Source: Alphaproteobacteria bacterium | GTDB taxonomy: Bacteria > Pseudomonadota > Alphaproteobacteria > Rs-D84 | Assembly (NCBI GenBank): GCA_017629245.1 | Contig: JAGBXO010000003.1 | Span: 1,897 to 65,896, forward strand | Length of the DNA stretch: 64,000 bases | Reading direction: 5' to 3' | Shown: positions 58,590 through 60,116 of the stretch, piece after piece | How the letters are laid out: the number at the start of each line of letters is the position of its first letter | How positions within the stretch are numbered: the stretch's first letter is position 1 | The notes under the pieces: model-generated | The model's input: only the letters and a program-made list of their open reading frames with translations | Databases searched by the model: none | Told to the model about the DNA's origin: nothing | Position numbers and translations under genes: made by a program

Positions 58590-60116
58590 TTATTGCATAC
58601 GAACGACACTGCAACTGGTTCCGCTGAAACGCAGTAACTTATCACACAGCTCTTGCGCTGTGGCAATATCTGCCAATGGTCCAATGCGCAGACGATATTG
58701 ACGCGCACTGGAAGATTCGGCCCCCAAATCGCCAACGCCCTGTTCGTCAATTGCAAAGAATACCATGTCCTTATACGGGGTCAACAATCCCTGACCATCA
58801 TCGCCACTGAATTTTGCCAACAGTGTTGACCAGTATTTATCCAACGCATCAACAGATGTATCTGATTTTAGTTCAACCGCAACGCCAATCTGGTTGCTGG
58901 CAATCACTGGGATATTTGTTTGTGGCAGATATGCCCCGGCGGTATTGCGCTGTTGTGGCAACATGTTAACCACACTGCCAGACTGCTGTGGCATTGCCTG
59001 TGGTACGGTAAAACCAGCCGGCATATATGTACCAGCGCCCGTTGTTGGATTTACCATTTGGGTATTGCCAACATACATTGGTGTACCGGTGTAATTTGTA
59101 CCCATGCTCATTGCGGCCATGCTGTCTGTGTATGCGATATTATTCAGCGATTGTCCCGACAGCATGCTTTGTGCAACATTTGCCTCAGCCAGGGCCATAA
59201 CAGACGCCGTATCAGCGATTAAGAATGGCTTTTCGCGTTTTTTGATGCATACTATGCGTTGACCGCTGCGTAATACCATGTCGCCAACCGCTTCAACAAT
59301 TAACAGGCGTCCATCTTCACCATCTGTGCGGAATCCAACCGGTGATTCGCCGCCTTCGACCAATAATGATACAACCGGACGCTGGGTCATAGAAATAACC
59401 TTGTCCCCAAAGTCAATATATGTAAATATTCTGTCACGCCATACGCGTTCAGGCGCAATTACATAGTCATCTGGATTTGGAACAAAAATATCTAAATCAA
59501 ATCTGAATTCCGACGGGTCAATCTTCATAGATTTTATCCAACCGTAATCTTCGCCGTCTGCCCCAACCACAGATGTCTTGGGTGCGGCCTTTTGAAATAT
59601 TGATTTCGCACCACCCGACGCAGATGCGGCCCCGCCCGCCATGGGCAGTGTGGCATTACCATCCAATGTAATGTCAACCTGGGAATATGTAATTTCGCTG
59701 GAATTTGATGGTTCTGCACGCAGATATAAAATATATTTGTTCCCTGATTTACCTGTCACAATCATATTGGTATCTGAACCCTGGTTGTCAGTTTTTGGTG
59801 AGATAAACATCGTGCGGTCGCCCTGGGTTGCGGTAATGTCAAATTGACCCTGGTCGCCAACCATCGCATCAACAATCTGTTCACCATTAGGCAGGTTAAT
59901 CATTGTCACCATTCCATTACGCAACTTGATTGGTAGCACCGCACCCGCCGACCATGGCAGTTGTGCGTATCCTGGCTTGGTGCTGCCCATCGCCATGTTT
60001 GCAGTTGGATTGTCCCATGCGGTTTGTACGCCATATTCTTCCGCATGCACTGGCATCCCCAATACGTATGCCAAACATAAAACAGATATATTTAATTTAA
60101 ACAATTTTGCAAACAT
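58590..60116 (-). CDS. virB9: type IV secretion system protein VirB9/TrbG with a Q/M/T-rich linker and a C-terminal SPOR-like domain
   Basis: Signal peptide. VirB9 N-domain 'MVTMINLPNGEQIVD...TNMIVTGKSGNKYILYLRA'. C-domain '...FTYIDFGDKV...VLRSGQRIVCIKK'. Then low complexity and 'YRLRIGPLADIATAQELCDKLLRFSGTSCSVV' (SPOR signature). 508 aa, versus about 280 typical. Confidence 0.75.
   Translation of the reverse strand: MFAKLFKLNISVLCLAYVLGMPVHAEEYGVQTAWDNPTANMAMGSTKPGYAQLPWSAGAVLPIKLRNGMVTMINLPNGEQIVDAMVGDQGQFDITATQGDRTMFISPKTDNQGSDTNMIVTGKSGNKYILYLRAEPSNSSEITYSQVDITLDGNATLPMAGGAASASGGAKSIFQKAAPKTSVVGADGEDYGWIKSMKIDPSEFRFDLDIFVPNPDDYVIAPERVWRDRIFTYIDFGDKVISMTQRPVVSLLVEGGESPVGFRTDGEDGRLLIVEAVGDMVLRSGQRIVCIKKREKPFLIADTASVMALAEANVAQSMLSGQSLNNIAYTDSMAAMSMGTNYTGTPMYVGNTQMVNPTTGAGTYMPAGFTVPQAMPQQSGSVVNMLPQQRNTAGAYLPQTNIPVIASNQIGVAVELKSDTSVDALDKYWSTLLAKFSGDDGQGLLTPYKDMVFFAIDEQGVGDLGAESSSARQYRLRIGPLADIATAQELCDKLLRFSGTSCSVVRMQ

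What the first reader, a model, noticed from the sequence alone, without database searches (positions are those of the whole stretch)
58590..60116. VirB9 fused to a low-complexity linker and a C-terminal SPOR-like peptidoglycan-binding domain
The VirB9 N- and C-domains occupy about 300 aa. They are followed by a Q/M/T/G-rich segment and then 'YRLRIGPLADIATAQELCDKLLRFSGTSCSVV', which matches the SPOR core seen, for example, in the DacC-like protein at 48150-49355 ('LYRVRVYGLGEAEAQKL'). A SPOR domain would tether the T4SS outer-membrane core to denuded glycan or septal peptidoglycan. That is an unusual anchoring solution that could substitute for VirB7.
Basis: partly seen in the sequence, partly recalled or inferred. 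Interest (0 to 1): 0.65.

Follow-up and report, generated by a model that had tools for sequence, protein, structure and literature searches.

The report
VirB9 with a tethered SPOR-like domain
A secretion-machine outer-membrane subunit (VirB9) of a small-genome gut bacterium carries a flexible tail ending in a divergent cell-wall-binding (SPOR) domain; the fusion is real and shared by many related bacteria, but it lacks the residue that normally grips the cell wall and does not replace the VirB7 lipoprotein.

Summary
ORF 58590-60116 (-) is one intact 508-aa protein. It has a signal peptide, the two VirB9 domains (Pfam CagX, E 9e-24), a ~115-aa stretch predicted to be disordered, and a ~100-aa C-terminal domain. 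It lies in a virB8-virB9-virB10 operon in Candidatus Enterousia (order Rs-D84, genomes under 1 Mb).

The same architecture occurs in more than 120 protein clusters and 80 genomes, so it is not a frameshift artefact.

The C-terminal domain is a divergent SPOR domain:
- Single sequences score 14-25 bits against Pfam SPOR.
- The family consensus scores 47.7 bits (E 2e-12).
- AlphaFold gives a beta-alpha-beta-beta-alpha-beta fold, and its best solved-structure matches are the RlpA and DedD SPOR domains.

The one highly conserved glycan-binding glutamine of SPOR domains is Glu here, in all 120 close homologues. It is Glu or Asp in 28 of 29 more distant clusters. Peptidoglycan binding is therefore plausible but unproven.

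The idea that the domain substitutes for VirB7 is not supported. Three relatives with the same VirB9 tail, including cultured Microvirga, also encode a VirB7-like lipoprotein.

The tail is widespread, in 48 of the 90 full-length VirB9 relatives examined. None of my four literature searches found a paper that describes it. I rate it a new variant of a known kind, of moderate interest.

The parts
58590..60116 (-). virB9 gene: 508-aa VirB9 with a C-terminal SPOR-like domain (stop codon 58590-58592)
   Evidence: ORF; Pfam CagX 84.8 bits plus SPOR; more than 120 full-length homologue clusters; 80 genome loci
60042..60116 (-). Signal peptide, residues 1-25 (MFAKLFKLNISVLCLAYVLGMPVHA|EE). Sec type, with no lipobox.
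   Evidence: Read from the sequence; AlphaFold helix 2-20. The cleavage site is inferred.
59664..59984 (-). VirB9 N-terminal beta-sandwich domain, residues 45-151 (the I-layer part in known core complexes)
   Evidence: Pfam CagX and TraK_N, TIGR02781 residues 55-144; AlphaFold pLDDT 78-88
59544..59663 (-). Variable Gly/Ala/Ser-rich linker between the two VirB9 domains, residues 152-191
   Evidence: Poorly conserved columns; pLDDT 35-54
59238..59543 (-). VirB9 C-terminal beta-sandwich domain, residues 192-293 (the O-layer part, which binds VirB7 in known systems). Almost invariant within Enterousia.
   Evidence: Pfam CagX extends to residue 293; nearly all columns invariant among 21 homologues; pLDDT 74-86
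58890..59237 (-). Tether predicted to be disordered, residues 294-409, rich in A/T/M/P/N/Q/G. A weakly predicted helix lies at 304-320.
   Evidence: Composition; pLDDT below 50 for residues 296-409; length and sequence vary freely in distant relatives
58593..58889 (-). Divergent SPOR-family domain, residues 410-508 (beta-alpha-beta-beta-alpha-beta). Glu415 occupies the canonical Gln position. Arg475 and Arg477 lie on strand beta3. Cys491 and Cys502 are invariant and probably form a disulfide.
   Evidence: Pfam SPOR 22.1 bits on the last 100 aa; family consensus 47.7 bits, E 2e-12; AlphaFold model pLDDT 75; best Foldseek PDB matches are RlpA SPOR 6i09/6i05 and DedD 6ztg; residue conservation
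60138..60902 (-). virB8, immediately upstream with a 21-nt gap. The likely true start is GTG at 60818, behind an AAGGGGGAG ribosome-binding site.
   Evidence: Pfam VirB8 E 3.1e-7; sequence
56141..58573 (-). virB10, immediately downstream: ATG at 58573, 16 nt after the virB9 stop, behind a GGGGG ribosome-binding site. It encodes 810 aa with a TrbI/VirB10 domain and extra N- and C-terminal regions.
   Evidence: Pfam TrbI E 2.9e-18, NCBIfam VirB10 domain; sequence
56108..56135 (-). Intrinsic-terminator-like hairpin plus T-run that ends the virB8-9-10 operon

Best explanation
This is the VirB9 subunit of a type IV secretion system (T4SS) outer-membrane core complex. A divergent SPOR-family domain has been added to its C-terminus through a tether of about 115 residues that is predicted to be disordered.

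Shown:
- The domain order is signal peptide, VirB9 N-domain, VirB9 C-domain, tether, SPOR-like domain.
- The gene lies in a virB8-virB9-virB10 operon.
- The fusion is conserved throughout Candidatus Enterousia and in many more distant VirB9 relatives.
- The tail is homologous to SPOR domains and is predicted to adopt their fold.

Inferred mechanism:
- In solved core complexes the VirB9 C-domain sits in the O-layer under the outer membrane, in about 14 copies.
- Each copy would therefore let a SPOR-like module hang into the periplasm on a long leash. A probable Cys491-Cys502 disulfide would stabilise the module.
- The module would reach the peptidoglycan layer and bind glycan strands through its beta-sheet face, where Arg475 and Arg477 preserve the basic patch.
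- This would anchor or position the core complex on the sacculus. If specificity for amidase-processed glycan is retained, it would favour division sites and new poles.

The domain is an addition to the VirB7-VirB9-VirB10 core, not a replacement for VirB7. The canonical Gln is Glu, so the ligand or binding mode probably differs from that of FtsN or RlpA.
For: Architecture and operon.

Conservation of the fusion:
- The 120 best protein clusters are 77-98% identical and match 95-100% of the query, apart from one truncated entry.
- All 80 genome loci returned match through residue 508.
- The same domain lies at the extreme C-terminus in 48 of 90 full-length VirB9 relatives taken from clusters at 50% identity.

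SPOR homology:
- The window protein scores 22.1 bits, above the gathering score, on its last 100 aa.
- Ten of the fourteen distant relatives scanned that match the near-group domain profile, plus a C-terminal fragment (P0137), give independent Pfam SPOR hits of 14-25 bits. Several span the whole profile.
- The family consensus scores 47.7 bits, E 2e-12, over profile positions 7-76 of 76.
- The AlphaFold model has SPOR topology.
- The best PDB matches are RlpA SPOR 6i09_A (probability 1.00, target TM-score 0.73), 6i05 and DedD 6ztg.

Binding face and stability:
- Arg475 and Arg477 are invariant. By position they correspond to RlpA R309/R311 and FtsN R285, which bind the MurNAc lactyl carboxylate (PMC6895207).
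- Cys491 and Cys502 are invariant across the whole family. FtsN's SPOR domain also needs a disulfide.

VirB7 coexists with the tail in relatives.
Against: - The only highly conserved glycan-contacting residue of SPOR domains (Gln at profile position 8) is Glu415. A carboxylate cannot donate the hydrogen bonds that Gln makes to the lactyl carboxylate and to the GlcNAc acetyl group, and it would repel the carboxylate (PMC6895207; the chemistry is my inference).
- Profile position 12, commonly Phe, is Asp419.
- The canonical SPOR domain of the DacC-like protein in the same genome keeps Gln and Phe. The change is therefore specific to the VirB9 tail and is not a property of this organism's cell wall.
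- A profile of the domain finds no SPOR protein in the PDB by sequence.
- The more distant group of tails is linked only by profile-profile comparison (97% probability) and has no Pfam hit of its own.
- No binding experiment exists.
- I could not establish whether Enterousia has a complete T4SS. No VirB4, VirB6 or VirB11 was found in the window or within 10 kb of virB9 in 80 genomes.
Confidence: 0.5

Rival explanations
1. The tail descends from a SPOR domain but no longer binds peptidoglycan. It would serve as a protein-protein module, for example docking on VirB10, on VirB7 or on neighbouring VirB9 tails to form an extra periplasmic ring or a regulatory plug.
For: - The canonical Gln is lost family-wide: Glu in 25, Asp in 3 and Gln in 1 of 29 near-group clusters, and Glu in 120 of 120 close homologues. 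In the far group the position appears variable, read by eye from the alignment.
- The aromatic residue at profile position 12 is lost in the near group.
- Family-specific invariant residues that I do not recall as SPOR consensus (Leu425, Trp429, Cys491, Cys502) suggest a distinct constraint.
- VirB10 in these systems is also unusually elaborated, at 810 to 2653 aa.
Against: - The basic residues on strand beta3 that form the glycan-binding patch are strictly kept.
- A tether of roughly 0-200 residues with variable sequence suits reaching a distant, diffuse target such as the sacculus better than a fixed docking site.
- One member (P0133) has the canonical 'VQLGS'.
- No partner has been identified.
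Confidence: 0.27
2. The tail binds peptidoglycan but mainly sets where the machine is built. It would recruit VirB9 to amidase-processed septal glycan, so that the T4SS assembles at division sites and ends up at the new poles. Mechanical anchoring would be secondary.
For: [quoted passage not shown]
- The domain is homologous to them.
- Polar T4SS placement is known in other bacteria (my own knowledge of Legionella and Agrobacterium; not tested here).
Against: - Specificity for denuded glycan depends on the Gln that is missing here.
- There are no localisation data.
- Enterousia is uncultured.
Confidence: 0.18
3. The fusion is an artefact: two genes joined by a sequencing or assembly error, or a chance resemblance to SPOR.
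For: On the full-length window protein alone the Pfam SPOR score (18.6 bits) is below the gathering score.
Against: - The same uninterrupted architecture occurs in more than 120 independent protein clusters and 80 genomes from different hosts and studies.
- It also occurs in relatives of only 30-45% identity.
- The consensus hit to SPOR has E 2e-12.
- The fold prediction agrees.
Confidence: 0.01

Closest known systems
Canonical VirB9 / TraO / TrbG (A. tumefaciens VirB9, pKM101 TraO, X. citri VirB9; Pfam PF03524)
   Same: Signal peptide and two beta-sandwich domains (Pfam 84.8 bits). The gene lies between virB8 and virB10. In relatives a VirB7-like lipoprotein gene lies nearby.
   Different: It carries an extra 215 residues after the C-domain: a tether and a SPOR-like domain. 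Canonical proteins end at about 270-300 aa (my own knowledge). It scores far below the NCBIfam VirB9 equivalog cut-off (55.5 against 217.7 bits).
SPOR domains of FtsN, DamX, DedD, RlpA and CwlC (Pfam PF05036)
   Same: Beta-alpha-beta-beta-alpha-beta fold, profile-level homology, conserved Arg residues on strand beta3, periplasmic location, and a probable disulfide as in FtsN.
   Different: The signature Gln is Glu or Asp and the Phe at profile position 12 is absent. The invariant Trp429 and Cys491/Cys502 pair do not match the SPOR consensus as I recall it. The disulfide partner differs from FtsN's C252-C312 pair. The domain is attached to a secretion-system subunit, not to a division protein or a lytic enzyme.
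H. pylori CagX and other 'expanded' VirB9 homologues
   Same: A VirB9 core enlarged by lineage-specific extra regions, a recurring theme in T4SS evolution (PMC9371333).
   Different: As far as I know, CagX's extra part is N-terminal and contributes to the periplasmic ring, and no peptidoglycan-binding domain is described there. Here the addition is C-terminal and SPOR-derived.
Peptidoglycan-binding accessories of other envelope machines (Legionella Dot/Icm DotK with an OmpA-like domain; T6SS TagL; type IV pilus TsaP with LysM; flagellar MotB)
   Same: The same general idea of coupling a trans-envelope machine to the sacculus. DotK is a component of a T4SS core complex (its OmpA-like nature and the other examples come from my own knowledge).
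   Different: Those use OmpA-like or LysM domains, usually on separate proteins. Here a SPOR-family domain is fused directly to the conserved VirB9 subunit.
Rickettsiales vir homologue (rvh) T4SS gene layout
   Same: Distant relatives with the same VirB9 tail show virB8-virB7-virB8-virB9-virB10-virB11 with an oversized VirB10 (L081, L082). In Enterousia the T4SS genes are split into islets, with virB8-9-10 alone beside tRNA-Trp, secE and nusG.
   Different: I did not test membership of the rvh lineage. As far as I know, Rickettsia, Anaplasma and Wolbachia VirB9 proteins have no such tail.

Membership tests
VirB9/TrbG/CagX (Pfam PF03524) | Profile match above the curated cut-off that covers both domains | tested here: met
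   84.8 bits against a cut-off of 34.2; residues 52-293 match profile positions 5-197 of 198
VirB9/TrbG/CagX (Pfam PF03524) | Secreted periplasmic protein with two beta-sandwich domains | tested here: met
   N-terminal hydrophobic signal. AlphaFold gives beta-rich domains at 45-151 and 192-293 with pLDDT about 75-88.
VirB9/TrbG/CagX (Pfam PF03524) | Gene context with virB8 and virB10 | tested here: met
   virB8 is 21 nt upstream and virB10 is 16 nt downstream, followed by a terminator. VirB10 lies downstream in the window and at least 79 of the 80 Enterousia loci.
VirB9/TrbG/CagX (Pfam PF03524) | Binds a VirB7 lipoprotein through its C-domain | not testable with these tools
   No virB7 candidate in the window or within 10 kb in 80 genomes. 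Relatives have one. No interaction was modelled.
NCBIfam TIGR02781 (P-type conjugative VirB9, equivalog) | Score at or above the equivalog cut-off | tested here: not met
   55.5 bits against a cut-off of 217.7. It is a divergent VirB9, not the canonical conjugative equivalog.
SPOR domain (Pfam PF05036) | Profile match at or above the gathering score of 21 bits | tested here: inconclusive
   Full protein 18.6 bits; last 100 aa 22.1 bits, covering only profile positions 39-76. Relatives score 14-25 bits. The family consensus scores 47.7 bits, E 2e-12, over positions 7-76. Taken together this supports homology.
SPOR domain (Pfam PF05036) | A beta-alpha-beta-beta-alpha-beta (RNP-like) fold of about 70-100 aa | tested here: met
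   The AlphaFold model has strands 12-20, 53-59, 73-82 and 104-108 and helices 23-38 and 85-99. The best PDB matches are RlpA SPOR (target TM-score 0.73) and DedD SPOR.
SPOR domain (Pfam PF05036) | Conserved Gln on strand beta1 (RlpA Q270 / FtsN Q251, profile position 8) that hydrogen-bonds MurNAc lactyl and GlcNAc acetyl groups | tested here: not met
   Glu415 in 120 of 120 close homologues. E 25, D 3 and Q 1 among 29 more distant clusters. The register follows from the Pfam coordinates of the consensus and of P0128. The role of the Gln is taken from PMC6895207.
SPOR domain (Pfam PF05036) | Basic patch on the beta-sheet that binds the lactyl carboxylate (RlpA R302/R309/R311, FtsN R285) | tested here: met
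   Arg475 and Arg477 in 'YRLRIGP' are invariant and align with the 'yRvrvGp' motif. The correspondence is by sequence register only, not by superposition.
SPOR domain (Pfam PF05036) | Binds peptidoglycan glycan strands that lack stem peptides and localises to the septum | not testable with these tools
   Needs biochemistry or microscopy.
rvh-type (Rickettsiales-like) T4SS | Scattered gene islets, duplicated virB8/virB9/virB4, several virB6 genes, no virB5 | tested here: inconclusive
   The Enterousia islet holds only virB8-9-10. L081 and L082 have duplicated virB8 flanking virB7. I could not read whole genomes.

The most novel reading that the evidence does not exclude
The VirB9 tails would define a functionally distinct branch of the SPOR family. 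In this branch the glycan-reading Gln is replaced by an acidic residue next to a retained Arg pair. That would give a different ligand: for example N-deacetylated or otherwise modified glycan carrying a positive charge, or a protein partner. A large alphaproteobacterial T4SS clade would use this module to place or lock its core complex at particular cell-wall sites. That would be a direct, previously unrecognised link between cell-wall state and T4SS positioning, and it could be tested in cultured Microvirga.
Probability: 0.15. Interest if true: 0.7.

Novelty: new variant of a known kind. Interest (0 to 1): 0.45.

Why it matters
How type IV secretion core complexes relate to the peptidoglycan layer they must cross is poorly understood. 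Known core components (VirB7, VirB9, VirB10) have no recognised cell-wall-binding module.

A SPOR-family domain fused to VirB9 is present in about half of the full-length relatives examined. These include cultivable Microvirga with a classical virB2-virB11/virD4 operon. This offers a simple, testable handle on anchoring or positioning of the machine. Public annotations of the named relatives call them only 'TrbG/VirB9 family', so the tail is easy to overlook.

The family-wide Gln-to-Glu/Asp change also provides a natural variant for asking what determines SPOR ligand specificity.

For Candidatus Enterousia, a gut bacterium with a genome under 1 Mb that lacks respiration and standard transporters for sugars, amino acids and peptides (PMC12306168), a conserved T4SS core operon is a clue to a lifestyle that depends on a partner.

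Tried and rejected
- A profile search of the C-terminal domain against PDB sequences found no SPOR protein, only antibody chains at E about 0.4. I do not count this against homology, because the clear DacC SPOR domain itself finds only CwlC, at E 8e-4.
- The consensus of the more distant tails gave no Pfam hit. Those tails are linked to the near group only by hhalign.
- Alignment A3 was too diverse for the locus search. It was repeated with A4, whose 80 returned loci were all Enterousia-like, so the genomes of distant relatives were not seen that way.
- A search for a VirB7 gene in the window found nothing credible. It used a lipobox scan of all 30-120-aa ORFs and the 'GIG...SPCAC' motif taken from relatives, applied to the window and all loci.
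- tblastn with the L081 query proteins found only VirB8 and VirB10 in the window and the 80 Enterousia loci. The queries included a partial VirB4, a candidate VirB6 and VirB11.
- I tested whether the Cys-rich tail of VirB10 is related to the Cys-rich 736-aa protein at 4476-6686. It is not.
- The family HMM against FtsN (sequence from memory) and the DacC SPOR domain gave only very weak alignments, and I did not use them.
- Literature searches for VirB9 plus SPOR, T4SS plus SPOR, VirB9 plus peptidoglycan-binding domain, and Rs-D84 plus secretion found no description of this fusion. The 2023 Enterousia paper is not held in the library.
- The frameshift or artefact explanation is rejected.
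Full report
**1. What is at the coordinates**

The minus-strand ORF 58590..60116 is an uninterrupted 508-codon frame. Pfam places a CagX/VirB9 match at residues 52-293 (84.8 bits, E 8.9e-24, profile positions 5-197 of 198). It places a weak SPOR match at residues 470-506, covering only the second half of the profile. That match scores 18.6 bits on the full protein, below the gathering score of 21. On the last 100 residues alone it scores 22.1 bits, E 1.9e-4. NCBIfam recognises VirB9 only far below its equivalog cut-off (55.5 against 217.7 bits), so this is a divergent VirB9.

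The gene is the middle one of a tight operon.
- virB8 (60138-60902, Pfam VirB8 E 3.1e-7) ends 21 nt upstream of it. Its likely true start is GTG at 60818.
- virB10 starts at ATG 58573, 16 nt after the virB9 stop, behind a GGGGG ribosome-binding site.
- A hairpin and T-run directly follow the virB10 stop.

Upstream of the operon lie tRNA-Trp, secE, nusG and rplK/A/J. Downstream lie three small unknown ORFs, then yidC, lspA and a kefB-like gene. The context is chromosomal housekeeping genes, not a plasmid or island.

**2. The fusion is real and conserved**

A search of about 5.8 billion proteins returned 1248 hits. The 120 best are 77-98% identical and nearly all 492-524 aa long. They match 95-100% of the query, apart from one truncated 447-aa entry. 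Three already carry precomputed Pfam SPOR plus CagX labels. A scan of one genome per species returned 80 loci (72-98% identity), and all of them match through residue 508. They come from human, ruminant, horse, chicken and mouse gut MAGs, many named Candidatus Enterousia. One is a circular 958,618-bp chromosome. Enterousia belongs to the uncultured alphaproteobacterial order Rs-D84. Its genomes are about 0.75-1.0 Mb and lack the TCA cycle, respiration and standard transporters for sugars, amino acids and peptides (PMC12306168). This rules out a frameshift or assembly artefact.

**3. Domain anatomy**

A full-length AlphaFold model, built from an alignment of 32 sequences, gives five parts:
- a signal helix at residues 2-20;
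- a confident beta domain at 45-151;
- a low-confidence Gly/Ala-rich linker at 152-191;
- a confident beta domain at 192-293;
- residues 296-409 at pLDDT below 50, with only a weakly predicted helix at 304-320;
- a confident C-terminal domain at 411-507.

Residues 294-405 are rich in A, T, M, P, N, Q and G. Within Enterousia this segment, especially residues 294-330, is nearly invariant, as is the whole VirB9 C-domain. Relatives at 30-45% identity vary it freely in sequence. The spacing between the core and the tail domain ranges from about 0 to 200 residues. I read it as a flexible tether, not as a domain.

**4. Is the tail a SPOR domain?**

Several independent lines say yes, although it is divergent.

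(a) Fold. The isolated tail (residues 400-508, alignment of 18 sequences) folds with mean pLDDT 75 into beta-alpha-beta-beta-alpha-beta. A Foldseek search of the PDB ranks the P. aeruginosa RlpA SPOR domain first and second (6i09_A: E 2.8e-3, probability 1.00, target TM-score 0.73; then 6i05). The DedD SPOR domain is fifth. Other ferredoxin-like folds score lower, at TM 0.2-0.45.

(b) Distant relatives. A HMMER search of 1.84 billion cluster representatives with the full-length family profile found 518 VirB9 relatives. My own iterated hmmsearch on the 150 proteins listed finds the same tail in many clusters of 30-45% identity. Of the fourteen such relatives scanned that match the near-group profile, ten give independent weak Pfam SPOR hits of 14-25 bits, as does a C-terminal fragment (P0137). 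Several of these hits span the whole profile, such as positions 3-76 in P0128 and 5-76 in P0133.

(c) Consensus. The consensus sequence of the tail family hits Pfam SPOR at 47.7 bits, E 2e-12, over profile positions 7-76 of 76, with no competing family of note. Consensus sequences inflate scores. Even so, the hit is specific among 24,736 models.

A profile search against PDB sequences found nothing. The clear SPOR domain of the DacC-like protein in this window (E 6.1e-9) also finds only CwlC, at E 8e-4. SPOR domains are simply too divergent for that test to count against homology.

**5. A twist: the signature residue is missing**

The structural study of RlpA SPOR bound to denuded glycan reports the following (PMC6895207):
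- Only Q270 (FtsN Q251, DamX Q351; profile position 8) is highly conserved among SPOR domains.
- Its amide donates hydrogen bonds to the MurNAc lactyl carboxylate and to the GlcNAc acetyl group.
- A basic patch (RlpA R302/R309/R311, FtsN R285) holds the carboxylate.
- Profile position 12 is usually Phe.

The Pfam coordinates of the consensus hit (residue 5 at profile position 7) and of P0128 (residue 446 at position 3) place the family's conserved acidic residue at position 8. In the window protein this is Glu415. It is Glu in 120 of 120 close homologues. Among 29 more distant clusters it is Glu in 25, Asp in 3 and Gln in 1: P0133 reads 'VQLGS', which also supports the register. Position 12 is an invariant Asp419.

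In contrast, Arg475 and Arg477 ('YRLRIGP'), Leu425, Trp429, Gly479, Pro480, Cys491 and Cys502 are invariant. The two cysteines are invariant across every relative aligned. A helix-to-strand disulfide is therefore likely. FtsN's SPOR domain also depends on a disulfide, between different positions.

The DacC-like SPOR domain in the same window keeps the canonical 'VQFGAF'. The change is therefore a property of the VirB9 tail and not of this organism's cell wall. A glutamate cannot make the Gln contacts and would repel the lactyl carboxylate; that chemistry is my inference. The tail may bind glycan in a different way, bind a different ligand, or have become a protein-binding module.

**6. Distribution and the VirB7 question**

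Relatives further out, such as P0158, P0160, P0163, P0168-P0171, P0176, P0180 and P0192-P0198, also end in a beta-alpha-beta with the same two cysteines. A profile of 30 such tails aligns with the near-group profile at 97% probability (E 9e-11, 84 columns). Their consensus has no Pfam hit of its own. In all, 48 of the 90 full-length (380 aa or more) proteins listed carry the domain, always within 12 residues of the C-terminus. One cluster is from cultured Microvirga species (WP_262266973.1 and others), annotated only as 'TrbG/VirB9 family'.

Gene neighbourhoods of relatives with the tail:
- L081 has virB4, four unknown genes, a 1109-aa candidate VirB6, virB8, a 59-aa gene, virB8, virB9, a 2653-aa gene whose C-terminal part matches Enterousia VirB10, and virB11.
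- L082 has virB8, a 58-aa gene, virB8, virB9, a 2274-aa virB10 and virB11.
- Microvirga L084 has a classical order: virB2, virB3, virB4, two unknown genes, a 58-aa gene, virB8, virB9, virB10, virB11 and, further on, virD4.

The three small genes encode lipoproteins. Their lipoboxes are LAAC, LVAC and LSAC, and they share a 'GIG..P..LK.SPCAC' motif. They lie where virB7 normally does. The tail therefore coexists with VirB7 and cannot be explained as its replacement.

In Enterousia itself I found no lipoprotein candidate in the 64-kb window, and no such motif within 10 kb of virB9 in 80 genomes. I also found no VirB4, VirB6 or VirB11 there. The T4SS genes are evidently scattered, and I could not read the rest of the genomes. 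Whether Enterousia has VirB7, or a complete T4SS, remains open.

**7. Most likely mechanism**

In solved core complexes the VirB9 C-domain lies in the O-layer beneath the outer membrane, around VirB10, in 14 copies (PMC9371333). A tail attached there by about 115 disordered residues would hang into the periplasm and could reach the peptidoglycan layer. I consider a peptidoglycan tether or positioning device the best explanation, at about 0.5. It rests on SPOR ancestry, the retained Arg patch, the periplasmic disulfide and the variable-length leash.

The main rival, at about 0.27, is a SPOR-derived protein-binding module. The loss of the Gln and of the aromatic residue motivates it. A variant of the tether model, at about 0.18, has the domain mainly recruiting assembly to septal glycan and so to new poles.

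All of these are inferences. Only the architecture, the conservation, the homology and the predicted fold are shown.

**8. Comparison with what is known, and novelty**

None of my four literature searches found this fusion. They covered VirB9 plus SPOR, T4SS plus SPOR, VirB9 plus peptidoglycan-binding domain, and Rs-D84 plus secretion. Extra domains on VirB7, VirB9 and VirB10 are a recognised theme. Peptidoglycan-binding accessories exist on other machines (DotK, TagL, TsaP, MotB; my own knowledge). This is therefore a new variant of a known kind, not a new kind of system.

It is of moderate interest. The tail is widespread yet unannotated. It can be tested in a cultured organism. It also carries an unusual substitution at the one signature residue of SPOR domains.

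Noticed in passing
window 56141-58573 (-): VirB10 is unusually elaborate at 810 aa from ATG 58573. In the numbering of the 871-aa ORF it has a weak 'choice-of-anchor D' Ig-like match (residues 112-193), a Pro/Glu-rich stretch and the TrbI/VirB10 domain (about 460-660). It ends in a C-terminal extension of about 200 aa with many cysteines ('...CCTGEIYTDMGEQGFNCCPEAGGDCFPPMF'). Relatives with the same VirB9 tail have giant genes of 2274 and 2653 aa in the virB10 position (L082, L081).
   Followed up: partly
window 4476-6686 (+): A 736-aa protein with no Pfam match. It has an N-terminal signal or membrane segment, a long Arg/Thr/Ala/Asn-rich repetitive region and then a Cys-rich domain. It may be a secreted or surface protein. 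It is not related to the Cys-rich tail of VirB10.
   Followed up: partly
window 43938-45311 (+): A 457-aa protein with no Pfam match at E <= 0.001, lying between a phosphate acetyl/butyryl-transferase gene and a pyruvate phosphate dikinase gene.
   Followed up: no
window 48150-49355 (+): A D-alanyl-D-alanine carboxypeptidase (Peptidase_S11) with a Pro/Ala/Thr-rich linker and a canonical C-terminal SPOR domain ('GVQFGAFSS', E 6.1e-9). It is an in-genome control that keeps the signature Gln and Phe which the VirB9 tail lacks.
   Followed up: yes
L081:9011-9190, L082:1395-1571, L084:7189-7365: Small (58-59 aa) lipoproteins in the virB7 position share a conserved 'GIG..P..LK.SPCAC' motif across three distant loci. 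The motif could serve as a search pattern for VirB7 in this T4SS clade.
   Followed up: partly
window 54762-55844 (-): Three small ORFs lie between virB10 and yidC: 114 aa at 55500-55844, 130 aa at 55066-55458 and 170 aa at 54762-55274. None has a significant family match. The last has a sub-threshold Stealth_CR4 hit and overlaps the 130-aa ORF. Their link to the T4SS is unknown.
   Followed up: no
window 56141-60902 and loci L001-L080: The Enterousia T4SS genes are split. The virB8-9-10 islet stands alone next to tRNA-Trp, secE and nusG. No virB4, virB6, virB7 or virB11 lies within 10 kb in 80 genomes, which recalls the scattered Rickettsiales-type layout.
   Followed up: partly
A3/A4 alignment, just after the VirB9 C-domain (window residues ~294-320): Non-Enterousia relatives share a short motif directly after the C-domain, roughly R-x-D-P-x-x-G-L-(D/E)-x-x-x-Y...W. 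Enterousia instead has the invariant 'REKPFLIADTASVMALAEANVAQSML'. Either may be a conserved extension that packs on the core complex and is not part of the free tether.
   Followed up: no
P0156 (478 aa): One representative joins a DUF2961 match at its N-terminus to a partial VirB9 C-domain and the SPOR-like tail. It is probably a chimeric gene call or a misassembly.
   Followed up: no
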